In this document: in pieces, positions 21,902 through 61,867 of the stretch | Layout of the letters: each line of letters starts with the position of its first letter | Position numbering within the stretch: position 1 is the first letter of the stretch | DNA from: Alphaproteobacteria bacterium | GTDB taxonomy: Bacteria; Pseudomonadota; Alphaproteobacteria; RF32; CAG-239 | Length of the DNA stretch: 64,000 nucleotides | Reading direction: 5' to 3' | Assembly: GCA_017484225.1 (NCBI GenBank) | Contig: JAFUTN010000044.1 | Location: forward strand, 4,802 to 68,801 | Made by a program: the position numbers and the translations under genes | The notes under the pieces: model-generated | Told to the model about the DNA's origin: nothing | Seen by the model: only the letters and a program-made list of their open reading frames with translations | Databases searched by the model: none

Positions 21902-22438
21902 TTAAGAGAGTCTGTCTTTATTCCAGATAGCCTCTCTGATTATATCAAATTTGCTTTTATAACCGATATTGGAATTGGCCTTTTGTTGTTGTAATTCAAG
22001 AAGACGAGCCTTTTTGGCCGCTTTAATTTGTTTTTCGTATTGCCGGCGCACCACTTTAGACATTTTATCTGCTCGTTTGTTGTAATACGAAAGCACCGAA
22101 CCATCTTGATAGTGTCCTTTAATCCACATCAAACTGCTTTTTGTTTCAGCCATTTGCTTTCTGATTTTATTGACAAGTTCTTTTTCATTTTTTCGGCACA
22201 ATCCGCAACGCAGCGCATTAATAACATAGATTGAATCCGTAAAAATCGTAACATGTTTTTTATCCATGTATTGAATATCTTCCAAAGCAAACGAGACAGC
22301 ACTAAGCTCTGCCGTATTGTTATCCCTTTGGGCAATCACGACACCTTTTTTATATAATTCCACATCACGAGAATCCGTAACAACAAAAGCTATTCCGGAT
22401 AATCCACCGCGTGTGCTTGCATCAGTATATACTCTCAT
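21902..22438 (-). CDS. rnhA: Ribonuclease H (RNase HI-like) with a C-terminal basic extension
   Basis: VYTDAS...NNTAELSAVSFAL...IFTDSIYVINAL...NKRADKMSK. The DEDD catalytic residues are in RNase H order. Confidence 0.65.
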   Translation of the reverse strand: MRVYTDASTRGGLSGIAFVVTDSRDVELYKKGVVIAQRDNNTAELSAVSFALEDIQYMDKKHVTIFTDSIYVINALRCGLCRKNEKELVNKIRKQMAETKSSLMWIKGHYQDGSVLSYYNKRADKMSKVVRRQYEKQIKAAKKARLLELQQQKANSNIGYKSKFDIIREAIWNKDRLS

Positions 22439-22689
22439 ATCATCCTCTTGCTGTTAGTTTGCACCGGAAAAATTATATATAAATCAAGACTTAGTTGCCA
22501 AAATTACTTAAGTGTCATCAAAAAAATAGAAAAAGTTATATTTCTTGTCTTATACGGCCTTATTCCATAATAACCAATCAAGAGCAATCCAAATTATTGA
22601 CACAAATTTATCATATACAAAATTATTTGTCAAGTTCTATACCATAACTTTTTCTTATATGTTTAATTAAAGAAACATTAAACGAATTT

Positions 22690-22717
22690 GTTGCGTATTT
22701 TTCCTATATGCTATAAT
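22690..22717 (+). repeat. 28-bp perfect direct repeat, copy 1 (gttgcgtatttttcctatatgctataat), promoter-like
   Basis: Identical to 24388-24415. Contains TTGCGT...TATAAT with ~15-16 bp spacing and sits 5 bp upstream of the 22723 ORF. Confidence 0.9.
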
Positions 22718-22722
22718 AAGCA

Positions 22723-24321
22723 GTGCAAATGGCACGTCAACAAACGCCGGAAGCACGTTTCAAAATATCTGGAAATATTGATAAAATCAACCGCGGGACC
22801 GTTGACCGTAACGAGGCCTTTATAAACGAAATGTTCGGAAACAAAAGCGGTTTTGTAGCCAAAGAAGAAGCTATGCAGGCGGCTAAAGAAAAAGCACGTC
22901 CGCTGTTTAATGAACTTGAAAACATGGGGGATTTGGACCCTAATTTCACCGCTCGTAACAATTTGATAAATCAATTAAATACTAAAGAATATTCTGACAT
23001 TCCTTTTGGTTCATTACCAGAAAACATAAGAAAACAGGTTAATCAAATCAGAATAAATAGCGGGCAGAAACCATTAAAGTCTGATATGATGATTCCTGCT
23101 GGCGTGGTGCAAAAATGGAGAGGTAATAGAATGTTTGAAAATTACACTCCAGAAAGGATTGCACAAATAGCAGATGAAGTATATCATTCGCCTAATGTAA
23201 AAGTATCAGAAGGAGATTATCCTCATATTCAAAAGTTATTAAAAGAGCGTGAAGGACATAACAACGACTTTGTCGGCTTTATATCTCAAAATCCTAAAAC
23301 AGGGGATACGGTAGCAAAAACGGTATATCAAGTAAAAAGAAATGCCCAGACTGGGCGCCAACCAGTGTCGTTACAAGATAATCTTGTCGGCAGGAAGCGA
23401 CTCTCTGACCTACAAAGCACTTCTTCAGAAGATAATATACCATCACTTGGGGAGATTGTCAAGGGAAATGACGTTATAGCCGATGCGATAAGTAAGGTTA
23501 AACGCTCATATTCGTCATTAAAGAATTTGCCGGATACCGATGCAAGGGTTATTTTGGAAGCGCGTAAGCTTTTGAGCAAGCAAAGTGCAAACCAGCTTGA
23601 CAGCACCGCAGCATATCAGGCACGGCAAGCATTAAAAGAATTTGACCCTGCATTGAAAAATGTTTTCGGCGATAAGCTGGAGCAGGCAAACAAGCTGTAT
23701 GCCGGTGCGCATCAGTTTGAAAACGCTTATGAGCAAGGAAGCAATATTTTTAACAAAATGACACCGGATGAGTTCGGTACTATGTTTAAAAATATGACAG
23801 CCGATGAAAAAATTGCACTCAAAGGCGGAATGAAAGACGAGTTATGGAACATTATTCATGGCAGAGAAAATGAAACTCTGGGGTGGAAAAGAGTTGTACC
23901 GAAATCGGCACAAGATAAAATCCGTATGGCATTAGGGGAAAAAGAAGGCAATAAGCTGATTGCTTATGCCAATGCCGAAATCAAAAAAATGCGCAACTTT
24001 AATGAATTGTTGAGAGGCTCACAAACATCAGAAAAGCAGAAATTGCGCGATGGAGTGGGTTTTGTGCGCAAAATACTCAAAAATCCGACCGGAATTATCG
24101 GGGAAGTTTTGCCGGCGGCAAATGCCAGAAACAGAGGTATTGCCGAAATCATGACTAATCCGAGCGCAACAACAGCGCGGGAAGCTTTTAATCAGGTAGT
24201 TAATCCGACTTCCAAGTTAGAGGCTTTATATCAGGCGTTGTATAATCCGAGCGCAAGAACAACTGCCGTTAATTCGGCGTTGGCGGCCTATTTGGCAAAT
24301 ATGCCGCTGAAAAACAACTAG
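22723..24321 (+). CDS. Orphan 532-aa cytoplasmic protein (no recognisable domain)
   Basis: Long ORF, K/N/Q-rich, with no signal peptide or TM segment. Bracketed by 28-bp direct repeats. No motif I can assign. Confidence 0.5.
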   Translation: MQMARQQTPEARFKISGNIDKINRGTVDRNEAFINEMFGNKSGFVAKEEAMQAAKEKARPLFNELENMGDLDPNFTARNNLINQLNTKEYSDIPFGSLPENIRKQVNQIRINSGQKPLKSDMMIPAGVVQKWRGNRMFENYTPERIAQIADEVYHSPNVKVSEGDYPHIQKLLKEREGHNNDFVGFISQNPKTGDTVAKTVYQVKRNAQTGRQPVSLQDNLVGRKRLSDLQSTSSEDNIPSLGEIVKGNDVIADAISKVKRSYSSLKNLPDTDARVILEARKLLSKQSANQLDSTAAYQARQALKEFDPALKNVFGDKLEQANKLYAGAHQFENAYEQGSNIFNKMTPDEFGTMFKNMTADEKIALKGGMKDELWNIIHGRENETLGWKRVVPKSAQDKIRMALGEKEGNKLIAYANAEIKKMRNFNELLRGSQTSEKQKLRDGVGFVRKILKNPTGIIGEVLPAANARNRGIAEIMTNPSATTAREAFNQVVNPTSKLEALYQALYNPSARTTAVNSALAAYLANMPLKNN

Positions 24322-24387
24322 ACTTAATTTTATTTCAGGAGAAAAAATATGAAAGATTGCAAAGTAACAAAAAATGAAGAAGAGGCA

Positions 24388-24415
24388 GTTGCGTATTTTT
24401 CCTATATGCTATAAT
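24388..24415 (+). repeat. 28-bp perfect direct repeat, copy 2
   Basis: Identical 28-mer. Lies 25 bp upstream of a strong hairpin terminator, which would give a ~55-nt transcript. Confidence 0.9.
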
Positions 24416-24440
24416 CTTGCTCATCTTGCAACATAAATTA

Positions 24441-24477
24441 AACGGACGGGAGTTTGTCTCTCGTCCGTTTTTTTTGA
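24441..24477. terminator. Bidirectional rho-independent terminator (aaacggacgggag / ctcgtccgttt)
   Basis: 13-bp stem with a T-run on + and an A-run on -. Terminates the 24490..26553 gene (- strand) and any + strand transcript from the repeat promoter. Confidence 0.75.
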
Positions 24478-24489
24478 TGTCCGGATTTA

Positions 24490-26553
24490 TTATTTGAATT
24501 TATACGATACAATATTCCCCGACGGCATACATTCCGGAAATCCGGTAAAGTTGGAGCCGCATACAACATTAGGAATATTTTCGCATTTGTCGGCATATAC
24601 TTTGTTTAAATCGGTATTAACACCGAAAGCTACAAAACTCTTATCCGACATCAAATCCCAACTGTTGAAAATCATATTTTCACACACACTTTCAGACAAA
24701 TTGGTAAGGCGAATAATGAAAGCATCCTGTTTTTCTTCCACGCTGTTAAGTTGCGAAGAAGAAATATTAACGGTGCCTCCCAAAGCATGAACTATTGCAT
24801 TATTTGCCCCTATCATATCTTCGGGAACGACTCCAATCTTTTTGGCTGTTTCACTATTTAGTCCGCTGTAATCATCCTGAGTTGCATACATTGTGCGAAT
24901 ATTTAGTGCCAACATACTCAGTTGGTCGGCGACTTTATTTTCTTTATATTTATCCATTGCATTAAAATATCCGCTGTAAAATCCCATAGTGAACGGATCT
25001 GCCGTAACTTTTCCGCTATCTATCAGTTCTTTTACCTGCTTCATTTCTTTTTCAATGTCTTTCATTGTGGCATCTATGGCATTCATATCTATGTAATTTT
25101 CAATTTCGTTCTCAAAAATCCTTTTGCCGTTAGCTACAAAACCATTTTTTAAATCACCGGAAATAACATTTTCAACCTTGTTATCTTTATATGTAATGAT
25201 TTTTAAAGTAACCGCTTCTTCAGGAGACTCCATGAATGTTGAAAAATCAACACCTTTTTTAATACCGACTACACCGCCGATAATTTTTTCTCCTTTATTG
25301 TTAAGCAGCAAACCGTTAACGGAATCCAAAACATCGGAAATCTCCATTGCATATTCAGGCAACGCTTGCATAAGATGTTCCATTGCCACATCTTCCGTAT
25401 TTTCGGAAAACTCATTCAAAACATTATTCAACAGCTTTTTATAGGTAGCCTTAAATTTGTCATTAAATTTCATACCGAAAGACATTAAAGGCTTTCCGGA
25501 AACAGGATATGCCAGATTCAAAATTGTTCCCTTATCGGTAATTTTGAGTTCGGTCCCCGGTTTATTATCAAACCCGAAAAATGTTGCTTTCCACTGATTG
25601 GAAAAACCATCCATCAGATTAAAATCTCCGGTGCTTTCAAAAATTTTACGACCGTTTACCTGCATAAAGCTGTCGGAGCTGGTAATTTTACTTAATACGA
25701 CCTTTATCAATTTTACGATATCTTTATTTTCCTGTTTGGAAAAACCGAATTCACCGATTGCCGGTATAACCTCATCAAGACCTTTAATTATTTGTGTCTG
25801 TTCGTATTTATTGTTGCTGTCTGCCGATTTGAAAGAAAACTGATTTTTATCGGCATCATACGAAAAACTTATTTTAAATTTTCCTAAATTTTCCAATCCG
25901 TAAAGAGACGCATAAAGATTAACCATCTCCCCGCTTTTATCTTCACACGAAAAAGAAGAGTTTTGCGTAAATTTAGGATAAACAAATCCACCTTCATATT
26001 CACAAGAATATTCTTTCCCTTCTGCCGAGGCTGATGAAAAATCAAAACATTCCGCCAAAGCGGTAAATGTTTCCAAGTTGCCGTTTTCGGCAAAACTCTG
26101 AACTTTGGCAAACAAATTTTCATCTTCACAAATTATTTTACTGCCGACCGAAACAATATCATCTTCTTCTTTTTGCTGAACAGATAACACTCCGTCATTT
26201 ACCGAAAACTCTGTTTTGGAAAGTTCCGGATATTTTTCATGTGTATCAAAAGATACCGAGCCGGACAGCTTGCCGTTTGCATAATTTACCTTGATAACAT
26301 TTTGACCTGCAAAAATATCAGCTTCACCTTCTTTAACCCCGTTTACCATATTATATTGCTGTGAAATTGAACCATTCACATTGTATATGGTGTATTTGCC
26401 GGTTTTCTGAAAAAATTTTCTTTGCACCGTTGTATGGATTTTTCCGTCAGGATAATAAGTTGTTTCCGGTTGATTTCCCATCCACACTGCACCACCGCAC
26501 GCCGCAGCTATTATCGCACCGGCGGAAACAGAAGCAATTACCTTTGTTTTCAT
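24490..26553 (-). CDS. Large secreted/lipoprotein-like hypothetical protein (687 aa)
   Basis: Signal peptide MKTKVIASVSAGAIIAAACGG (lipobox-like AACG). Otherwise no recognisable domains; Asn/Ser/Gly-rich beta-type composition. Confidence 0.5.
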   Translation of the reverse strand: MKTKVIASVSAGAIIAAACGGAVWMGNQPETTYYPDGKIHTTVQRKFFQKTGKYTIYNVNGSISQQYNMVNGVKEGEADIFAGQNVIKVNYANGKLSGSVSFDTHEKYPELSKTEFSVNDGVLSVQQKEEDDIVSVGSKIICEDENLFAKVQSFAENGNLETFTALAECFDFSSASAEGKEYSCEYEGGFVYPKFTQNSSFSCEDKSGEMVNLYASLYGLENLGKFKISFSYDADKNQFSFKSADSNNKYEQTQIIKGLDEVIPAIGEFGFSKQENKDIVKLIKVVLSKITSSDSFMQVNGRKIFESTGDFNLMDGFSNQWKATFFGFDNKPGTELKITDKGTILNLAYPVSGKPLMSFGMKFNDKFKATYKKLLNNVLNEFSENTEDVAMEHLMQALPEYAMEISDVLDSVNGLLLNNKGEKIIGGVVGIKKGVDFSTFMESPEEAVTLKIITYKDNKVENVISGDLKNGFVANGKRIFENEIENYIDMNAIDATMKDIEKEMKQVKELIDSGKVTADPFTMGFYSGYFNAMDKYKENKVADQLSMLALNIRTMYATQDDYSGLNSETAKKIGVVPEDMIGANNAIVHALGGTVNISSSQLNSVEEKQDAFIIRLTNLSESVCENMIFNSWDLMSDKSFVAFGVNTDLNKVYADKCENIPNVVCGSNFTGFPECMPSGNIVSYKFK

Positions 26554-26717: not shown

Positions 26718-27728
26718 ATGGTATCCGTTTCTGTTATAATGCCGGTCTATAATACCGCAGAAAGTTATTTGCGCGACGCTGTTTCCAGTGTTTTGGCACA
26801 GAGTTTTACCGATTTTGAATTTTTAATTTTGAATGACAGTCCGGATAATCGCAAGCTGAAAAACATTGTTTTAAGCTATAATGACAAACGCATAAAATAT
26901 TTTGAAAACCCATATAATATGGGAATCCCGCAGAGTTACAACAAATTATTGGAATTGGCTTCCGGAAAATATGTTGCCGTTATGAATCATGACGATATTA
27001 TGCTGAACTCTCGGCTATCTACTCAATATACGTATTTAGAAAAACATCCGGAAATTGTTCTTTTGGGTTCTTGGTATAAAAAATTCGGAGAAATCAACCG
27101 TTTCAAGATAGTAAAGAATCCGCGTTCTCACGAGGAAATATGCGCATGCCTTTTGTTTAAGTCTTCCCTCCATCACCCGACAATTATGATGCGCCGTGAC
27201 ATTATTGAGCTGCACAAAATAAGATATAATGAAAACTATATCTCCTTAAATGACAGAATTTTGTGTTATGACTTCAGTAAATACGGCAGATTGGAAAACT
27301 TGCCGCAAGTTCTTTACAAATACCGTTTTCATAAAAATATGACCAGTAAAGCGCAAAAAGACATTATTCGCAAAGAGCGTGCCATGTTCCACAAACTTTG
27401 GTTTGCCGGCAACAATATTGACCTTGATGCGGATGAAATTGATGTTTTTGACAATTATACCACTTGCGGACGCAATAAAATTACGGATAAAACGGTTTTG
27501 CTGACTGCACTCCGAACTTTAGAAAAACTTTCCGAAATTAACAAAAGTAAAAACATACTGTCTCTATCAGAATTTGATAAGGTATGCTCTAAATACTACT
27601 TTAAGCGTTGTTTGGGAGCTTTAATTTACGGAAAAATCAACTTAAAAAGCAACTTAAGTTCCCCTCTTCTTAAGAAAAAAGAAAAATTCCTCTTAAGATT
27701 TCTTAATATCTTTTGCGGTTGGAAATAA
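26718..27728 (+). CDS. Family 2 glycosyltransferase
   Basis: VSVIMPVYNTAESYL...LNDSPDN...MNHDD GT-A signatures, with a weak tail-like C-terminus KFLLRFLNIFCGWK. Confidence 0.7.
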   Translation: MVSVSVIMPVYNTAESYLRDAVSSVLAQSFTDFEFLILNDSPDNRKLKNIVLSYNDKRIKYFENPYNMGIPQSYNKLLELASGKYVAVMNHDDIMLNSRLSTQYTYLEKHPEIVLLGSWYKKFGEINRFKIVKNPRSHEEICACLLFKSSLHHPTIMMRRDIIELHKIRYNENYISLNDRILCYDFSKYGRLENLPQVLYKYRFHKNMTSKAQKDIIRKERAMFHKLWFAGNNIDLDADEIDVFDNYTTCGRNKITDKTVLLTALRTLEKLSEINKSKNILSLSEFDKVCSKYYFKRCLGALIYGKINLKSNLSSPLLKKKEKFLLRFLNIFCGWK

Positions 27729-55693: not shown

Positions 55694-58600
55694 CTAAAAA
55701 CGGTATTTAGCGCCAACGGTTCCGGTGTGTTCGGTATATTTACCGCGCCAGTTACCGATATATGTCATGTTGATGTCAAATTTTTCATTCATCTTGATAT
55801 TCAGTCCCAAATTACCTTCTAAGCTGAATTTATCGGTATTTGAGGTAACAAACGTATAGCTTCTGCCGTTTTTAAGCTGAATAACCGATTTTTCGTCATC
55901 AGATTTCATATCATAACCGACACCGAGATATGCCTCCGGACGCACAATAGCGGAATCCCCTACTCTGTAACTTTTATTCATCCGCAAGCCGGCAAGTCCG
56001 GTAACCACTTTCATATCGGCAGAATCTACATGCTGAGTCGTATCGTCCGTGTATGCGTCACGAGAAATACTGGTTACGCGCGCTCCGAACTCCGGAATAT
56101 AATTTATGTAGTGACCGATAAATTCATAACCGGTTTTAAATTGAACCGACGAATACTTAACATCATACTTAGCTTTGAATTTTTTACCCAAAGCTTTTTT
56201 ATCTTCTTCGTATTCGGACATGCTGTATGATGCCATCAAATTAGCAAACCAATGATTTGGTTTCACTTCACCGTAAACAAATCCGGTGTGAGTGGTAATA
56301 TCTGTATCACGGGAACTATTTTCCGCCGTTGACAAATCAAAGGCATAGCCGACGCCTACTCTTACGGACTCACCTAAATTGGTATCGGCACCGATTGCCA
56401 TACCTTTAGCATCCAAATCAAAACCGCTTATGGCACCGTCATCATCATAATTTCCCTTAGAAAAGTAAGCTTTTGCCCATGTTGTGCTGTATTTGAGCGA
56501 ATTATCTCCGGATGATACGCCGTAATATCTTGTGCCGTAAGAATCCTGATAGCTGTCGTAAGTATTGTTGTATTGATAATAACCGCTGTTCATATATCTG
56601 CCGAACATGGAGCGATTACGCTGAATAACACGATTGTTGCGCAAGTGAGAGCCTATCATATTAAACAAACGGTCACTGTTGGTTATGGCAGCGGTTTTCA
56701 CTATCGGTGCTTCGGACGGAGCAATGGCTGCCAACGCCTCATTGAGTTTTTTGCCGTCATTTTGAGCCAATTCAAACAAACCGTCGGCAATACTTTGTCC
56801 GACCGTTCCATCATCAAACGGCGACAAATCAACCCAGTTGCGCGCAGTTAAAGCGTTATCTTCCGTTCCGCCGTTTTCACGGGAAACCTCTTCAGCCGTT
56901 TTGTAGTATTGAATGATATAAACACCTTCTTCACCGGCCTTTTTGCTGATTTTATACATATTATTGCTTACAACATCCGTGAAATTGTTAACAAAATCAT
57001 CATTACCGGCCGAAAGCAAACGAACTTCAACCGAAGGTTTGCCGCCCAATAATCCCGTTCCGAGTGTTGCTTTCAACACAGCCCCCTCGTTAACCACCAT
57101 ATTATCGGCAACAACCAATCCATGTCTGCCATCTGTTACGGCGCGGATTTTTAAATCCAAAACCGAACCGGAATTAAACACAACACTGTTCAAATTAACG
57201 GTATTTGTTCCGATTGTTAAGCTTCCTCCGGTTGCATACAAAGAATCGGTTGTTCCGAATGTTGCGGAAGCATCATCTGCTTTCAAGTTACCGCTGTTAA
57301 GATTAATTCGGTTGTCGGTTATTGAATTTTTCAGCGTAACATCTCCGGCAATATTTATGATTCCGTTATCACCGTTAATGCCGTCTGCCAAAACAATCTT
57401 GTTACCGTTTGTCGTGCTAAAATTAAGTATTCCGGCATTATAAATTGCATTAGCTGCCTCATTAACCATATTTCCTTCAAAGCTTACATCTCTGTCATCA
57501 GCCATAACATTAACCGTTCCTTTATTGTATATTGCACCTCCGGAACCGGTTGCATTATTGTCATATAAGTTAACATTGGTTAAATTAACCTTGGCGGAAC
57601 TGTTGACTACTTTAATGGCGGAGCCGTCAATACCGGAAGCATTTTTTATGTCAACGTTTGAAATGTTAAGTGTTGATATGTTATTCAAAACAAAACCGCT
57701 ATGTGCATTCATATTAATGCTTGATGCTTTATCGGCAGACGAGCTCAGCACGCCTCTCACATTAAATGTGTCTGTTGATGAACTGCCGAGATTGTCTTCA
57801 ACCTTATATATGTTGTTATAGCGATTGAAATAAAATTCTTTTTCTGCTCCCAGATTTGCCTGATTTACTAAGGCTAACGTGTCACCTTGATAGCCGATAA
57901 ATGTTTTTTCTCCCGGAGTAAGTGAGGTAACTTTCAAAACAATACTGTCATTTGCCGTATCTTTGGTTCCTATTTCCAATATTCCGTTCACACCGAATTT
58001 TTGATTATAAACAGCATACTTGTCGTTCCATGCCGTAGAAATTTTTATTGCATCACTTACTTCTTTTTCGGTTAACCCTACCTGTTTTTCAACCGAAGTT
58101 TGTTCTCGCAACTCGTCCGTCATACTTAATTGTAACGCATTGTTATTATTTGCATTATTCAATACTTTAATCTTGTATGTATCCCCGACATCTGCATCAG
58201 CAATAAATTCGGAATCGCTATTCAATATATTCAGCTTATTAAGCAGAACCGTTCCGTTGGAAGCAGTGCCTGTTGATGTTCCGTAATCATCTGTTGTGGT
58301 AAATGTATCTGATTGCAAAGTAACATAATTAATGTCAATTTCATATTTTGCAACATCTGTTCCGATATTGGAAAACAGTGACTTAAACGCATTATCCCGA
58401 GTGGTGTTATCCAAGGTATTAACGGTTAAAGTTCCGGAACTTCCGCCGCCAAAAGTAACAATGGCATCTTTCATTTCTCCTGCAAGCAAAAATGTTCCGG
58501 TTGAACCGTCCGTAATTCCGACATTAACGGCATAATTATTTGTTCCGTTAATAACATCATCAAGTTCAAATACACCGGCTTTGGATAAACCGATATTCAA

Positions 58601-61600
58601 ATTACTTCCGTCCATATAAACCGCACTGTTGCCGGAATTATCTTTAATTACTGATGTGTAACCGACGTCTGTTGTTTCTCCGCTATCCGGATCGGTAACC
58701 GTTGTGCCGGTAACATACAAATTCACATCCTTATCGGCATAAATTGCACTGCCCTCTTCATCTGCTCTGGCAGACGAATTGCCTTTGAAATCAACATTCG
58801 TAAAATTTTGAATTGAATTTGCATCGGCAAATGTAAATGTATTCACGCCGTTGGTGAAAAGAACGTTATTGATATCATATTCCGCACCGTCTCCGGAAAC
58901 AAAACCGGTGTATTGGTTCAAATCAATCGTTGATTTTGTTCCGCCGGAATTACTCTTTCCGTTGATTACAAATTTTCCGGCACCGGTTGTTCCCATATAG
59001 TTTTGTCCCGCCAAATCGGAAACATATTCCGTCTCTTCCACAACAATTTTATCATTATTAACCACTTTTACATTGTTAAATGAGCCAAAATCAAAACTGC
59101 GGGAAGAAAATCCGGCGGCAGTTCCGTTCAATCTGTTAACCATTACGAGATTGTCACCCAAACCGGCTTCAATATCTTTACTGTATGTAGTCGGACCTTC
59201 CGTAATCACAAGACTGTCGTTTGTTGTATCTTTGGTAGCAAGTTTAACCGTGCCGTTAACGATTTCCGTCATTTTTCCGCGGGTATAATTTTCAGCCCAA
59301 TTTGTTTCAGATTCAACACTATCGGTATACGGCGCGCCGATTATTGAGCTAACCGGAAACAACAATCCCTCTACCGGACTACCGTCTTCTTCTTCCAAAC
59401 GAAGCTGAATATTGTCTTTATTGTTCATATTTTTAACGATTTGCAGCTTTTTCCCGCTTTCTTTCAAGCTGTTATAAGCATCAACACTAAAATCGGTAAA
59501 ATTAATTTTGCTCAAAGTAATATACTGTCCGGCATCCGCACTTTGGGCAACAATTCTGTCCCACCAATAAGTGCTTCCGGAGGTTTCTGCCGCCGAATTA
59601 CCCAGTGATAAATCTATTTCGTAACGAGCATTTTCGGTTGATGTAAACTGCCGGTATCCTTCCGGAATTGTTCCGTCTCCGCCGGAAAACTTGTATTCGG
59701 TATACATTCCGGATATTCCGTCATAGGAAACAGCATTTCCAAGCATACTGACGGTTATTTTATCAATATTTATTTCCCCTTGATTAAGTCTGGCATCTGA
59801 GGCACTTGCATAGTCCCATTTTATTTGGCTGTTCAGGTGGAATTTTTCCGTTTTTGCATCATTTCCACTTATTATGACTTTATATCCGTTAACACCGGAA
59901 ATACCTTGATTTAAATATATTTCTCCGCCGTTAACGGCATTAAATGTCACATTAACATCTGAAATTCCGACATATCCGGCAGCATCAGATCCTTCTGTCC
60001 CTGTTTGCCCGATTACAATACCGAAAGCACTGTTGCCAGCACTTCCAATCACAGTTGAAGCAACTACACCTTCAACATCATCATCTGTTGTAATATCTCC
60101 TAAATCAGTGCCATCGGCAACAATTTTAAAATCTGTTTTAGACTGTATGGCGTATCCCGATGTCGGAAGCAACCTGACATTTGTAAACGTTATGGTTTTA
60201 TCGCCGCTTTTTTTGGTTGTTTTGAAATCAAACAAATTGCTTGCATTTTGAAAAGCAACATTTTTAACGGTAAATGTATCGGCAAACGTTTCACGATAGC
60301 TACCGGTTTGTGAATTTTTATCAATATAAAATCCTCCGGCACCGTTGATTGTTGACAAGAAAATATTGCCGGAAGAATCTTTTCCCCATTTACCTTCAAT
60401 ATCAAATGACGTTCCGTGAATCGGAAGCTGACCGTAATATAAACCTCCGAAGATATCATATCTTGCTTTGCTTGAATTATACGCATAAACCTCATCTGCA
60501 TTTTGCGAAATAAAACTTCTGCTGACAGGAGCACCGCTGTCTGAATATGTGCAACTTGAAAGATTGCAAGTGACATTAGGAGACAGTGTTGTTGCCACCC
60601 ACAATGCATCAGCGGTTTTATCTCCCTTATCTTCTCTATCTTCAACTTTCTTTTCTAATTTATAAACACCGTTATCACCTTGCTTCAGATACGAAACTTT
60701 GCTTAAATATATTTTCTTTTTTATTGCCGACTCATAACCGAGTTCTCTTTGGGTATATTCAGCCGTATCCGGATCATAATCACTCATCCATGTAATTGTG
60801 TTATCAACATTTTCAAGTTCAACGCTGCCGCCTACCTGCTGTTCATAACTATTCCATCCTCCTTCTCCGGAAGCTGTCCAGCTTCCGCCTCCGGTTTTCA
60901 GGATAGTCCACTGCCAAGACCCGCTTTCGTCAACCGACGGAGTATCAAAAGAAAAGTGACTTGAATCAAATTTTCCGTTAAATATTCCGGTTTGTATAAC
61001 ATCACTACTGCCGGTAGAAAGTGCTGACATATAAAACCTTCCGTCACCCAGTGTCAAATCTCCGAATTTATACACACCATCCCTGTTGTCATATCTTGTA
61101 TCAAAATACACATAAGAACCGACGTTGATGTTGGAATCGGTAATTCCCACATCATTACTTGAACTTTCATTGTATAAATAAAACCTTCTGCTGCCACTTG
61201 AAGATGTAATATTTGTCGTCGTTGCACCGGTTATCAAATCATGAAGATGAACGTCCCTCGTCAAATTAATATTGAGAGTTCCGCCGTTCATATAAACAGC
61301 TTCATTTTTTCCGTTTGCCGTATTATGATTACCGGAATTTCCTATCTTCAATTCATTTGTAACATTAAGAGTTAAATTACCTCCGTCCATATAAACGGCA
61401 CCGCCGTGACCGCTGGCACTATTGCCGGTGATATTGGAAGCTCCGGTTATCGTCACATCTTTAGTGCTGTATATCGCGCCGCCGTTAGTGCCTGCACTGT
61501 TACCGGTAATATCACCGCCTATCGTTATTGCCGAGCCGGTATTATAAATTGCGCCACCGCTACCGTCATTTGTCTTGTTGTTTGTTAAACTGCCTATGGT

Positions 61601-61867
61601 TCCGCTAACCGTTCCTTCATTAAGAATTGCACCGCCGTTTTTGTTGGATGCATCATCTGCCGGAGATAATCCGGAAAAAGACTTTCCGTCCAGATTTGCA
61701 TCATTTCCGCTTTCAACCACACAACGACTGTTTCCGTCACAGGTAATTGTTTCGGCCAATACCGGAGATACGACAAAAAACAGTCCGGTATTAATCAAAA
61801 AACACTTTTTCAAAACACTGCGATACTGTGCATTCAAAAAACCAAGGGCAGATTTGGTGTAGCGCAT
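55694..61867 (-). CDS. Type Va autotransporter, 2057 aa (beta-helical passenger plus C-terminal beta-barrel)
   Basis: Extended signal peptide (MRYTKSALGFLNAQYRSVLKKCFLINTGLFFVVSPVLA). Gly/Thr/Asn/Ser-rich passenger with GGAIY-type pectate-lyase-like repeats (GGAIYN, GGAIYSTKDV, HGGAVYMDGG). The C-terminal ~280 aa show an alternating-hydrophobic beta-barrel pattern and end in ...GAKYRF (terminal Phe). Confidence 0.8.
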   Translation of the reverse strand: MRYTKSALGFLNAQYRSVLKKCFLINTGLFFVVSPVLAETITCDGNSRCVVESGNDANLDGKSFSGLSPADDASNKNGGAILNEGTVSGTIGSLTNNKTNDGSGGAIYNTGSAITIGGDITGNSAGTNGGAIYSTKDVTITGASNITGNSASGHGGAVYMDGGNLTLNVTNELKIGNSGNHNTANGKNEAVYMNGGTLNINLTRDVHLHDLITGATTTNITSSSGSRRFYLYNESSSNDVGITDSNINVGSYVYFDTRYDNRDGVYKFGDLTLGDGRFYMSALSTGSSDVIQTGIFNGKFDSSHFSFDTPSVDESGSWQWTILKTGGGSWTASGEGGWNSYEQQVGGSVELENVDNTITWMSDYDPDTAEYTQRELGYESAIKKKIYLSKVSYLKQGDNGVYKLEKKVEDREDKGDKTADALWVATTLSPNVTCNLSSCTYSDSGAPVSRSFISQNADEVYAYNSSKARYDIFGGLYYGQLPIHGTSFDIEGKWGKDSSGNIFLSTINGAGGFYIDKNSQTGSYRETFADTFTVKNVAFQNASNLFDFKTTKKSGDKTITFTNVRLLPTSGYAIQSKTDFKIVADGTDLGDITTDDDVEGVVASTVIGSAGNSAFGIVIGQTGTEGSDAAGYVGISDVNVTFNAVNGGEIYLNQGISGVNGYKVIISGNDAKTEKFHLNSQIKWDYASASDARLNQGEINIDKITVSMLGNAVSYDGISGMYTEYKFSGGDGTIPEGYRQFTSTENARYEIDLSLGNSAAETSGSTYWWDRIVAQSADAGQYITLSKINFTDFSVDAYNSLKESGKKLQIVKNMNNKDNIQLRLEEEDGSPVEGLLFPVSSIIGAPYTDSVESETNWAENYTRGKMTEIVNGTVKLATKDTTNDSLVITEGPTTYSKDIEAGLGDNLVMVNRLNGTAAGFSSRSFDFGSFNNVKVVNNDKIVVEETEYVSDLAGQNYMGTTGAGKFVINGKSNSGGTKSTIDLNQYTGFVSGDGAEYDINNVLFTNGVNTFTFADANSIQNFTNVDFKGNSSARADEEGSAIYADKDVNLYVTGTTVTDPDSGETTDVGYTSVIKDNSGNSAVYMDGSNLNIGLSKAGVFELDDVINGTNNYAVNVGITDGSTGTFLLAGEMKDAIVTFGGGSSGTLTVNTLDNTTRDNAFKSLFSNIGTDVAKYEIDINYVTLQSDTFTTTDDYGTSTGTASNGTVLLNKLNILNSDSEFIADADVGDTYKIKVLNNANNNNALQLSMTDELREQTSVEKQVGLTEKEVSDAIKISTAWNDKYAVYNQKFGVNGILEIGTKDTANDSIVLKVTSLTPGEKTFIGYQGDTLALVNQANLGAEKEFYFNRYNNIYKVEDNLGSSSTDTFNVRGVLSSSADKASSINMNAHSGFVLNNISTLNISNVDIKNASGIDGSAIKVVNSSAKVNLTNVNLYDNNATGSGGAIYNKGTVNVMADDRDVSFEGNMVNEAANAIYNAGILNFSTTNGNKIVLADGINGDNGIINIAGDVTLKNSITDNRINLNSGNLKADDASATFGTTDSLYATGGSLTIGTNTVNLNSVVFNSGSVLDLKIRAVTDGRHGLVVADNMVVNEGAVLKATLGTGLLGGKPSVEVRLLSAGNDDFVNNFTDVVSNNMYKISKKAGEEGVYIIQYYKTAEEVSRENGGTEDNALTARNWVDLSPFDDGTVGQSIADGLFELAQNDGKKLNEALAAIAPSEAPIVKTAAITNSDRLFNMIGSHLRNNRVIQRNRSMFGRYMNSGYYQYNNTYDSYQDSYGTRYYGVSSGDNSLKYSTTWAKAYFSKGNYDDDGAISGFDLDAKGMAIGADTNLGESVRVGVGYAFDLSTAENSSRDTDITTHTGFVYGEVKPNHWFANLMASYSMSEYEEDKKALGKKFKAKYDVKYSSVQFKTGYEFIGHYINYIPEFGARVTSISRDAYTDDTTQHVDSADMKVVTGLAGLRMNKSYRVGDSAIVRPEAYLGVGYDMKSDDEKSVIQLKNGRSYTFVTSNTDKFSLEGNLGLNIKMNEKFDINMTYIGNWRGKYTEHTGTVGAKYRF

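What the first reader, a model, noticed from the sequence alone, without database searches (positions are those of the whole stretch)
22690..24477. Orphan 532-aa gene bracketed by perfect 28-bp direct repeats that carry a promoter
The 28-mer gttgcgtatttttcctatatgctataat occurs twice in the same orientation (22690-22717 and 24388-24415), exactly flanking a single orphan ORF (22723..24321). Otherwise the window has essentially no long exact repeats. Each copy contains -35-like TTGCGT and -10 TATAAT elements. Copy 1 is 5 bp from the ORF start. Two explanations fit: the segment is a ~1.7 kb insertion (cassette or target-site duplication) between rnhA and the lipoprotein gene, or a promoter has been duplicated to drive two independent transcripts. 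The encoded protein has no signal peptide or TM segment and no motif I recognise.
Basis: seen in the sequence. Interest (0 to 1): 0.75.

Follow-up and report, generated by a model that had tools for sequence, protein, structure and literature searches.

The report
Phage gene inside decayed CRISPR array
The two 28-base repeats are damaged repeats of a CRISPR-Cas9 immune locus that has lost its cas genes, and the "orphan" gene between them is a 1.7-kb piece of phage DNA sitting where a 30-base spacer should be, which is unusual for CRISPR arrays.

Summary
In detail: the exact 28-mer occurs at 22690-22717 and 24388-24415, flanking an ORF at 22723/22729-24321. It is not a cassette with a target-site duplication. 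Other strains of the same uncultured gut alphaproteobacterium carry cas9-cas1-cas2, a tracrRNA gene and an array of 36-nt repeats with 29-30-nt spacers at exactly this site, which makes it a type II-C locus. The 28-mer is that repeat (GTTGCGTATTGACTGGAATTTCCTATATGCTATAAT) minus 8 nt. Copy 1 sits at the position of the array's first repeat. The hairpin after copy 2 is the 3' stump of the tracrRNA gene. In the window, the cas genes and the rest of the array have been deleted. The ORF is phage DNA. It starts at an internal methionine of a 780-920-aa phage virion "polyvalent" protein. In sister strains the insert continues through the phage's 34-aa gene and the first 118 codons of its tail-fibre gene, so a contiguous 2158-bp phage slice abuts a repeat at each end like a giant spacer. 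The full repeat is a near-consensus promoter. The 28-nt form keeps only the extended -10 and is placed to give a near-leaderless mRNA. The central module of the ORF differs between strains, which implies repeated recombination with phages. How the slice was captured, and whether the protein does anything, are inferred only.

The parts
22439..22689 (+). AT-rich intergenic region between the RNase H gene and the first CRISPR repeat (the upstream flank of the array).
   Evidence: Window 22401-22717 aligns to cas+ strain L081 at 17997-17672 with 95.7% identity. The last 70 nt before the repeat are identical.
22690..22717 (+). First ('extra', oldest-end) repeat of a type II-C CRISPR array. This is a 28-nt variant lacking repeat positions 11-18 (GACTGGAA). 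It keeps the extended -10 TGCTATAAT but has lost the -35 TTGACT.
   Evidence: It occupies the same position, after the same flank, as repeat 1 in L081 and L082. In strain L025/L086 this position holds a 36-nt repeat. The scanner calls the 36-nt repeat as a promoter but not the 28-nt form.
22718..24387 (+). Phage-derived insert of 1670 bp occupying a spacer position. It is a shortened version of the 2158-bp slice seen in L001 and L002, with an internal deletion of about 490 bp near 24376-24381.
   Evidence: tblastn and blastn match phage contigs L013-L015 and L026. The junction alignments are A1 and A2. The deletion was mapped against L001.
22729..24321 (+). ORF of 530 aa (532 aa from the GTG at 22723). 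It is an N-terminally truncated copy of a phage virion 'polyvalent'-type protein gene, and its first Met corresponds to an internal Met of the phage protein (residue ~277 of 806).
   Evidence: It matches phrog_5880. The central module (aa ~69-235) differs between strains.
24349..24414 (+). Remnant of the phage 34-aa gene. It is now a 21-codon frame that runs into the downstream repeat, and its Shine-Dalgarno sequence (AGGAG) is retained.
   Evidence: Comparison with the 34-aa ORF of L001 and L002 and with the phage 34-aa ORFs.
24388..24415 (+). Second CRISPR repeat, the same 28-nt deletion variant.
   Evidence: L001 and L002 have a full 36-nt repeat at this place. In L002 it is followed by further spacer-repeat units.
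24416..24432 (+). 17 nt (CTTGCTCATCTTGCAAC) with no counterpart in the cas+ strain. It is probably the first 17 nt of a spacer, cut off by the deletion that removed the cas genes.
   Evidence: blastn against L081 finds no match. This reading is an inference.
24433..24477 (+). 3' stump of the tracrRNA gene: the terminal hairpin (24440-24470) and its T-run. It now serves as the terminator for anything transcribed from the repeats.
   Evidence: Window 24433-24700 is 100% identical to L081 12121-11854, which is the 3' end of the tracrRNA candidate. The scanner calls a 13-bp-stem terminator here.

Best explanation
Window 22690-24477 is the wreck of a type II-C CRISPR-Cas locus. In intact strains of this species the site reads, in window orientation: RNase H gene, 250-bp flank, array of 36-nt repeats and 29-30-nt spacers transcribed towards cas2, then cas2-cas1-cas9 on the opposite strand, the tracrRNA gene and the PilS-like gene. 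The window differs from that layout in three ways. (1) The first spacer position holds a piece of phage genome instead of a 30-nt spacer. The piece is 2158 bp in sister strains and 1670 bp here after an internal deletion. It abuts a repeat at each end. It comprises the 3' two-thirds of a virion 'polyvalent' protein gene, a 34-aa gene and, in sister strains, the first 118 codons of the tail-fibre gene. (2) A deletion of about 5.5 kb removed the rest of the array, cas2, cas1, cas9 and the promoter, anti-repeat and middle of the tracrRNA gene. Only its terminator hairpin is left. (3) Both remaining repeats carry the same 8-nt deletion. That deletion destroys the repeat's -35 box and halves its predicted pairing with the tracrRNA. 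CRISPR interference from this locus should therefore be dead in this strain. What can still happen is transcription. The extended -10 (TGCTATAAT) at the 3' end of copy 1 should start an RNA about 4-6 nt before the ATG at 22729. That RNA would be a near-leaderless mRNA for the truncated phage protein, ending at the tracrRNA-derived terminator. Copy 2 would give only a short RNA of about 55 nt. The most likely capture route is inferred: homologous recombination between phage DNA and two pre-existing spacers of the array that matched the phage about 2.2 kb apart in the same orientation. This would replace whatever lay between them and leave exact repeat-to-phage borders. Later recombination with related phages swapped the central module of the ORF between strains. 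I rate the protein as more likely a passenger than a functional gene.
For: SHOWN. (a) The sequence is a CRISPR repeat. L002 has the 36-nt repeat three times with 30-nt unique spacers. L081 and L082 have 9 perfect repeats and 8 spacers, and L085 has at least 4 repeats. (b) Same site: the cas+ strains have cas9 (TIGR01865, 511 bits), cas1 (the type II NMENI model) and cas2 between the PilS-like gene and RNase H. The flank upstream of repeat 1 is identical to the window's. (c) tracrRNA: the candidate in L081 has its own promoter and an anti-repeat with a predicted duplex of -39 kcal/mol against the repeat, and its terminator is 100% identical to window 24433-24477. (d) The array is or was active against this phage group. 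L002 spacer 1 matches an IMG/VR virus at 30/30 and phage contig L026 at 28/30, at the 3' end of the tail-fibre gene next to the polyvalent gene. (e) The insert is phage DNA. Its homologues lie in contigs of up to about 37 kb carrying portal, capsid, Phage_stabilise, tail-fibre, lysozyme and integrase genes, in the order polyvalent gene, 34-aa gene, tail fibre. The chromosomal ORF, the 34-aa ORF and the 121-aa ORF are collinear with that order. (f) The borders look like spacer borders. Phage homology starts within about 0-5 nt of the upstream repeat and ends at the last codon before the downstream repeat. (g) Promoter: TTGACT-16 nt-TATAAT with a TG extension scores 11/12 in every 36-nt repeat. 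The 28-nt form is not called. Promoters inside type II-C repeats are established (PMC5965381), and mutated first repeats are common (PMC12080349). (h) The 8-nt deletion lowers predicted pairing with the tracrRNA from -39.0 to -20.1 kcal/mol. (i) Exchange with phages: flanking genes show pS 0.02-0.05 between strains, while the conserved parts of the ORF show pS 0.07-0.17 with pN/pS 0.13-0.46. The central module is non-homologous between strains, and the window's module is 84% identical in DNA to phage contig L026. INFERRED: the capture route, the order of events, transcription and translation.
Against: No strain in hand shows the phage slice together with cas genes. L002 has the slice plus normal spacers, but its contig ends inside the array. 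No spacer in the cas+ strains equals the first or last 30 nt of the slice, so the two-spacer recombination route has no direct support. The PAM-type evidence is weak: the known protospacer flanks are CAGAAC and TAGAAC, and nt 31-36 of the slice read CGGAAG. The identical 8-nt deletion in either repeat in different strains is not explained. The ORF is intact in all four alleles and shows coding constraint, so a host function cannot be excluded. No expression data exist. The nearest phage in hand is only 60-84% identical, so the donor phage has not been seen.
Confidence: 0.85

Rival explanations
1. Domesticated decoy. The truncated phage virion protein is expressed from the repeat promoter and protects the cell without Cas proteins, for example by poisoning virion assembly or DNA ejection of related phages. 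On this view it is kept after cas loss and is updated by recombination with current phages.
For: The ORF is intact in four alleles that differ by up to 30% in protein sequence, while the DNA just downstream of it decays by deletion. pN/pS is 0.13-0.46 in the conserved parts. A promoter element sits at the right distance from an ATG. The two deletions, or deletion variants, remove the phage-internal terminator but keep the ORF.
Against: The low pN/pS and the intact frame are also expected if alleles are simply imported from functional phage genes, and pS is 3-6 times higher than in the flanks. The 8-nt deletion weakens the promoter rather than strengthening it. There is no match to any defence-protein model and no informative fold. 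The ATG coincides with a Met that is already present in the closest phage proteins (P0005-P0009) but absent from more distant ones (P0015-P0028).
Confidence: 0.12
2. Decayed prophage. A temperate phage integrated into a CRISPR repeat through a repeat-mimicking attP, as PhiAP1.1 does in S. pyogenes. The prophage was then whittled down to about 2 kb, leaving attL and attR as the two repeats.
For: Integration of prophages into CRISPR repeats is documented (bioRxiv 10.1101/2020.10.09.333658). Related phage contigs carry integrases (L014, L015, L026).
Against: Both repeat borders abut the middle of structural genes (codon ~274 of the polyvalent gene and codon 118 of the tail-fibre gene), not att-proximal phage ends. 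Two independent deletions would each have had to stop exactly at a repeat edge. No repeat-like sequence was found in the phage contigs held. There is no integrase in the locus.
Confidence: 0.06
3. Aberrant adaptation. Cas1-Cas2 integrated a 2.2-kb phage fragment as if it were a prespacer, and this was the array's oldest acquisition.
For: The borders are exact spacer-like borders. The slice lies at the oldest end of the array, and normal spacers follow it in L002. In type II-C arrays new spacers enter at the last repeat (PMC12080349).
Against: Spacer length is normally set by the integrase complex. All 13 ordinary spacers seen here are 29-30 nt, except one cut down by a later deletion. I know of no precedent for kilobase integration by a type II Cas1-Cas2 (own knowledge). 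This route does not by itself explain the later module swaps.
Confidence: 0.12
4. Mobile cassette with a target-site duplication, or a duplicated housekeeping promoter.
For: Direct repeats flank one ORF, and TATAAT is present in each copy.
Against: The same sequence, in its 36-nt form, is tandemly arrayed with 30-nt spacers next to cas9-cas1-cas2 in sister strains. The locus has no transposase, integrase or inverted ends. The alternative allele at this site is a CRISPR-Cas locus, not an empty site with one copy of the 28-mer.
Confidence: 0.01

Closest known systems
[quoted passage not shown]
   Same: The operon contains only cas9-cas1-cas2. Repeats are 36 nt and spacers about 30 nt. The array is transcribed towards cas2. 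The repeat ends in an extended -10 (TGCTATAAT here; TGCTACAAT in Neisseria, from memory). A tracrRNA with an anti-repeat is present. The first repeat is mutated in its tracrRNA-pairing part.
   Different: In the window the cas genes, most of the array and most of the tracrRNA gene are gone. Here the full repeat also has a near-consensus -35 (TTGACT), not only an extended -10. The first spacer position holds 1.7-2.2 kb of phage DNA.
Orphan or decaying CRISPR arrays after loss of cas genes
   Same: Repeats remain without cas genes, and the repeats are degenerate. Strains of one species are polymorphic for the presence of the system.
   Different: What remains is not a set of short spacers but a translated-looking phage gene fragment. 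The deletion end lies inside the tracrRNA gene and keeps its terminator.
Recombination between phages and CRISPR loci through spacer-protospacer homology (Varble et al. 2019, Nat Microbiol 4:956; known to me by title and from memory, the paper was not held in the library)
   Same: It proposes homologous exchange between phage DNA and an array, using the 30-nt spacers as the homology. Here there is independent evidence that this locus recombines with phages, in the form of allele and module swaps.
   Different: That work, as I recall it, concerns phage-CRISPR hybrids that transduce CRISPR loci. A stable replacement of array units by a kilobase phage segment is not something I know to have been described.
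Prophage integration into CRISPR repeats (PhiAP1.1, S. pyogenes; bioRxiv 10.1101/2020.10.09.333658)
   Same: Phage DNA lies between two CRISPR repeats, and this is associated with erosion of the array.
   Different: In that case a whole prophage enters by integrase at an 8-bp core inside a repeat. Here a mid-gene to mid-gene slice of structural genes sits in a spacer position, without an integrase or att-end sequences.
Phage 'polyvalent' virion proteins (Iyer et al. 2017, PMC5512222; Pfam PF18760 ART-PolyVal)
   Same: The full-length homologues are 780-930 aa and are encoded among virion genes. Several carry the ART-PolyVal domain, and the central modules are swappable.
   Different: The window's copy lacks the N-terminal ~270 aa and has no ART domain. 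Its central module has no recognisable family or fold.

Membership tests
Type II-C CRISPR-Cas locus | cas9, cas1 and cas2 (no csn2, no cas4) lie next to the array. | tested here: met
   This is met in conspecific strains at the same site: L081-L085 have Cas9 (TIGR01865, 511 bits), cas1_NMENI (244 bits) and cas2. It is not met in the window itself, where no cas genes occur in 64 kb. The window is therefore a relic, not a working member.
Type II-C CRISPR-Cas locus | Identical direct repeats of about 36 nt are separated by unique spacers of about 30 nt. | tested here: met
   L002, L081, L082 and L085 have 36-nt repeats and 29-30-nt spacers. In the window only two 28-nt derivatives remain, 1670 bp apart.
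Type II-C CRISPR-Cas locus | Positional identity of the window's repeats with array repeats. | tested here: met
   The 70 nt upstream of copy 1 are identical to those upstream of repeat 1 in L081 and L082. L025/L086 carry a 36-nt repeat at the copy-1 position, and L001 and L002 carry one at the copy-2 position.
Type II-C CRISPR-Cas locus | Spacers match mobile elements. | tested here: met
   L002 spacer 1 matches IMG/VR UViG_3300031867_000823 at 30/30 and phage contig L026 at 28/30. Four other spacers searched had no exact match in IMG/VR.
Type II-C CRISPR-Cas locus | A tracrRNA with an anti-repeat complementary to the repeat. | tested here: met
   L081 12085-12215 (minus strand) holds a promoter, an anti-repeat (predicted duplex -39 kcal/mol) and a terminator; the fold z-score is -5.2. 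The window keeps only the last 45 nt, and no anti-repeat occurs anywhere in the window. Rfam gave no hit.
Type II-C CRISPR-Cas locus | A promoter inside each repeat that is actually used. | not testable with these tools
   At the sequence level, TTGACT-16-TATAAT with TG scores 11/12 in the 36-nt repeats, and only TGCTATAAT remains in the 28-nt form. Transcription start sites need dRNA-seq or 5' RACE.
Phage polyvalent proteins / ART-PolyVal (PF18760) | The ART-PolyVal domain is present. | tested here: not met
   The window ORF has no Pfam hit above cut-off. The domain is present in the homologues P0009, P0015 and P0018. The window ORF shares the family's conserved frame, but its central module is a different one.
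Phage polyvalent proteins / ART-PolyVal (PF18760) | The gene is encoded among virion structural genes of a phage. | tested here: met
   This holds for the full-length homologues, which have portal, capsid, tail-fibre and lysis genes around them. The window copy is chromosomal and truncated.
Insertion cassette with target-site duplication (IS, transposon or integron cassette) | A transposase or integrase, terminal inverted repeats or attC, and an empty site with one copy of the duplicated target. | tested here: not met
   No such gene or ends are present. The alternative allele is a CRISPR-Cas locus.
Prophage integrated into a CRISPR repeat (PhiAP1.1-like) | The phage ends next to the repeats are att-proximal ends, and an integrase is present. 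| tested here: not met
   The borders lie in the middle of the polyvalent and tail-fibre genes. There is no integrase in the locus.

The most novel reading that the evidence does not exclude
A CRISPR array can take up a kilobase-sized, protein-coding piece of phage genome in a spacer position, by recombination guided by its own spacers. The promoter inside the repeat then expresses the truncated phage virion protein as a second, Cas-independent layer of immunity. That layer would survive loss of cas9 and would keep being updated by recombination with circulating phages.
Probability: 0.1. Interest if true: 0.85.

Novelty: new variant of a known kind. Interest (0 to 1): 0.55.

Why it matters
Most of what is here is known biology: type II-C CRISPR loci, promoters inside repeats, degenerate first repeats, and loss of cas genes within a species. 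The unusual part is a 2.2-kb contiguous slice of phage genome bounded at both ends by CRISPR repeats exactly as a spacer would be. The slice is polymorphic between strains, with whole-module swaps that point to continuing recombination with phages. If this is general, arrays are not only libraries of 30-nt tags. They would also be places where phage genes can be captured, expressed from repeat promoters and exchanged with phages. That would bear on how CRISPR loci contribute to gene flow and on what can remain useful after cas genes are lost. It also has a practical consequence. Array finders that expect short spacers will miss such loci, and gene callers will annotate the insert as an 'orphan' host gene, as happened here.

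Tried and rejected
- **Exact-repeat scans.** Scans for the repeat (28- or 36-nt form) in genome contigs, viral contigs and metagenome contigs found nothing. An 18-mer scan of metagenomes gave 52 hits. Only one of them (L049) had repeat context, and the rest looked like chance matches. An 18-mer scan of viral contigs gave 2 chance hits.
- **Phage searches.** DNA similarity to the GenBank phage collection gave no match. The search for related loci with the ORF in IMG/VR found no close relative.
- **Syntenic species.** Loci from nine related species, pulled with the isoamylase gene, lack the RNase H gene, the ORF and the PilS-like gene next to isoamylase. They therefore offer no site that can be compared.
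- **RNA searches.** Rfam gave no CRISPR-DR or tracrRNA hit. An RNAduplex scan found no anti-repeat in the window.
- **Spacer searches.** Four spacers besides L002 spacer 1 had no exact viral match, so no PAM consensus could be built.
- **Protein function.** Pfam gave only a sub-threshold SbsC_C hit. PADLOC gave nothing. The PDB sequence profile search gave nothing meaningful. The whole-chain AlphaFold model has pLDDT 67 and no Foldseek PDB match below E of about 0.5; a weak RelE-like hit (probability 0.23) is not evidence. The isolated central module modelled at pLDDT 50 and was not searched.
- **Spacer identity test.** I tested whether the first or last 30 nt of the slice occur as spacers in the cas+ strains. 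They do not.
- **Rejected readings.** A target-site duplication or cassette, a duplicated housekeeping promoter, a decayed prophage, and an assembly chimera.
- **Literature.** Varble 2019 could not be read because it is not held.
Full report
**1. The observation**

The 28-mer GTTGCGTATTTTTCCTATATGCTATAAT occurs exactly twice, in the same orientation, at 22690-22717 and 24388-24415. None is expected by chance. It is the only perfect repeat pair of that length that the repeat finder reported for the window. The ORF at 22723(GTG)/22729(ATG)-24321 is real. Identical arrangements appear in independent assemblies from at least ten samples, so this is not an assembly chimera.

The window itself is ordinary chromosome. 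It carries gyrB, glycogen phosphorylase, uvrD, an autotransporter gene and many glycosyltransferase genes, and it has no cas genes. The organism is an uncultured gut or rumen alphaproteobacterium.

**2. What the repeats are**

Sister strains of the same species were found through the ORF and through the flanking genes.

- In L002 the sequence at the place of copy 2 is GTTGC(A/G)TATTGACTGGAATTTCCTATATGCTATAAT. It is followed by two 30-nt unique sequences, each followed by the same 36-mer, up to the end of the contig.
- The window's 28-mer is this 36-mer without positions 11-18 (GACTGGAA).
- In strains L081-L085, the interval between the PilS-like gene and the RNase H gene holds cas9 (1188 aa), cas1 and cas2, all above the curated NCBIfam cut-offs. 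There is no csn2 or cas4. The array has nine perfect 36-nt repeats and eight spacers of 29-30 nt.
- The 70 nt in front of the first repeat are identical to the 70 nt in front of the window's copy 1. Copy 1 is therefore, by position, the first repeat of a type II-C array.
- In strain L025/L086 that position still carries a 36-nt repeat with one mismatch, while the downstream position carries the 28-nt form.
- One L002 spacer matches an IMG/VR virus at 30/30 and a phage contig (L026) at 28/30, so the array behaves as a real one.

**3. The right-hand end**

In L081 the 213 bp between the PilS-like gene and cas9 encode a tracrRNA candidate. It lies on the strand that corresponds to the window's + strand. 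It has a promoter (TTGACA-16-TATCAT with TG) and an anti-repeat that pairs with the repeat at a predicted -39 kcal/mol. It ends in a hairpin terminator.

Window 24433-24700 is 100% identical to the 3' end of that region. The strong terminator at 24440-24477 is therefore the stump of the tracrRNA gene.

Compared with L081, the window lacks about 5.5 kb: the remaining spacer-repeat units, cas2, cas1, cas9 and the 5' two-thirds of the tracrRNA gene. The 17 nt at 24416-24432 have no counterpart in L081 and may be the start of a spacer cut off by that deletion (inference).

**4. What the ORF is**

The ORF has 33 homologues. Most are 780-930 aa, and several carry the ART-PolyVal domain.

Their genes lie in phage contigs among portal, capsid, stabilisation-protein, tail-fibre, lysis and integrase genes. 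The order there is: a ~690-aa gene, the homologue, a 34-aa gene, then a tail-fibre gene.

The chromosomal ORF begins at MARQQTP, which aligns with an internal methionine of the phage proteins (residue ~277 of 806 in L014).

In L001 and L002 the ORF is followed by the 34-aa gene and by a 121-codon frame. The first 118 codons of that frame are the start of the phage tail-fibre gene, and its last codons and stop come from the CRISPR repeat.

The chromosome therefore holds one contiguous 2158-bp slice of phage genome. Phage homology begins within a few nucleotides after the upstream repeat and ends at the last codon before the downstream repeat. That is the geometry of a spacer, about seventy times too long. 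The window and L003 carry the same slice with an internal deletion of about 490 bp. L025/L086 have nearly the same deletion with a slightly different junction.

**5. Promoter reading**

The scanner calls every full 36-nt repeat as TTGACT-16 nt-TATAAT with a TG extension, scoring 11 of 12. This fits the established rule that type II-C repeats carry their own promoters (PMC5965381). It also fits the finding that the first repeat must keep promoter function and is often mutated in its tracrRNA-pairing part (PMC12080349).

The 8-nt deletion removes the -35, so the 28-mers are not called as promoters. It also lowers predicted pairing with the tracrRNA from -39.0 to -20.1 kcal/mol. The extended -10, TGCTATAAT, remains.

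A start about 7 nt downstream of copy 1 would fall at about 22723-22726, which is 4-6 nt before the ATG at 22729. That would give a near-leaderless mRNA running to the tracrRNA-derived terminator. In L001 and L002 a phage-internal terminator after the 34-aa gene would stop it earlier. All of this is sequence-based inference, and no expression data were available.

**6. Variation between strains**

Flanking genes are 98-100% identical in protein between strains, with pS of 0.02-0.05. The four ORF alleles are 99%, 90%, about 70% and about 70% identical to the window's.

- The conserved N- and C-terminal parts have pS of 0.07-0.17 and pN/pS of 0.13-0.46.
- The central ~165 codons are non-homologous modules.
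- The window's central module is 84% identical in DNA to the module in phage contig L026.

The simplest reading is that the chromosomal slice has repeatedly recombined with related phages, or was captured more than once at the same borders. On that reading the intact frame and the coding constraint are inherited from functional phage genes.

**7. How the slice got there (inferred)**

I favour recombination between phage DNA and two array spacers that matched the phage 2.2 kb apart in the same orientation. Three points support this. It gives exact repeat borders. It could recur at the same borders. This locus demonstrably exchanges DNA with these phages, and one of its spacers targets the neighbouring tail-fibre gene of the same phage group.

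Direct support is lacking. No spacer in the cas+ strains equals either end of the slice. The PAM-type comparison is weak: the protospacer flanks are CAGAAC and TAGAAC, and nt 31-36 of the slice read CGGAAG.

The alternatives are integration of an over-long prespacer by Cas1-Cas2, and a decayed prophage that had integrated into a repeat (precedent: bioRxiv 10.1101/2020.10.09.333658). The prophage idea fits poorly, because both borders lie in the middle of structural genes.

**8. Function**

With no Cas9, no anti-repeat and both repeats damaged, this locus cannot perform CRISPR interference in this strain. The ORF product has no recognisable domain, defence-family match or fold. I rate it a passenger (about 0.7 to 0.8) rather than a domesticated decoy (about 0.1).

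**9. Verdict**

The element is a decayed type II-C CRISPR-Cas locus with a kilobase phage gene fragment in a spacer position. It is a new variant of a known kind. Interest is moderate. It would be high only if the capture route or a Cas-independent protective role of the expressed fragment were demonstrated.

Noticed in passing
L049 8759-8794 (minus strand), metagenome contig OQVS01002973.1: In another organism a solitary, related 36-nt repeat (3 mismatches) is fused directly to ACATAATTAAA plus a hairpin. The hairpin resembles the tracrRNA terminator of this species, with compensatory stem changes. The repeat sits between a glycosyltransferase gene and the convergent nusA-infB-rbfA operon, and no cas genes are nearby. 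It looks like a second, independent cas loss that ended at almost the same point in the tracrRNA gene.
   Followed up: partly
window 22690-22717 and 24388-24415; L001 9962-9989; L025 3019-3046: The identical 8-nt deletion (GACTGGAA) is found in the upstream repeat, the downstream repeat or both, depending on the strain. There is no microhomology at its ends. It could reflect gene conversion between the two repeats or recurrent selection, since it removes the -35 and weakens tracrRNA pairing. This is unexplained.
   Followed up: partly
window 23434-23462 (minus strand); L002 10706-10734; L025 2063-2091: A strong antisense promoter-like site (TTGACA-17-TATATT with TG, 11/12) lies inside the captured ORF and is conserved in three alleles.
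   Followed up: no
window 26718-27728 and 29921-32008: The glycosyltransferase genes flanking the CRISPR site vary between strains. The 329-aa and 351-aa genes are missing in L001. L081 has a different 302-aa gene in place of the 336-aa GT2 gene. This is a surface-polysaccharide locus that is polymorphic within the species.
   Followed up: no
window 21902-22438 (minus strand): A 178-aa RNase H gene with a C-terminal extension (best match: the phage RNase H family phrog_531) always lies 250 bp upstream of the first CRISPR repeat in this species. It is absent next to the isoamylase gene in nine related species.
   Followed up: partly
L082 10566-10655: In one cas+ strain a spacer is cut to 18 nt and the following repeat starts GTAGCG. 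This is a 12-nt deletion across a spacer/repeat border, an example of array erosion in progress.
   Followed up: no
window 55694-61867 (minus strand): A 2057-aa autotransporter gene with Chlamydia-type polymorphic membrane protein repeats.
   Followed up: no
proteins P0005-P0029; phage loci L013-L015 and L026: The phage protein family has a conserved frame: an N-terminal glycine-rich ~270 aa, a QMARQQTPEA segment and a C-terminal ~290 aa. Around a freely swapped central module, ART-PolyVal occurs in some members and unknown modules in others. It always lies just upstream of a 34-aa gene and the tail-fibre gene.
   Followed up: partly
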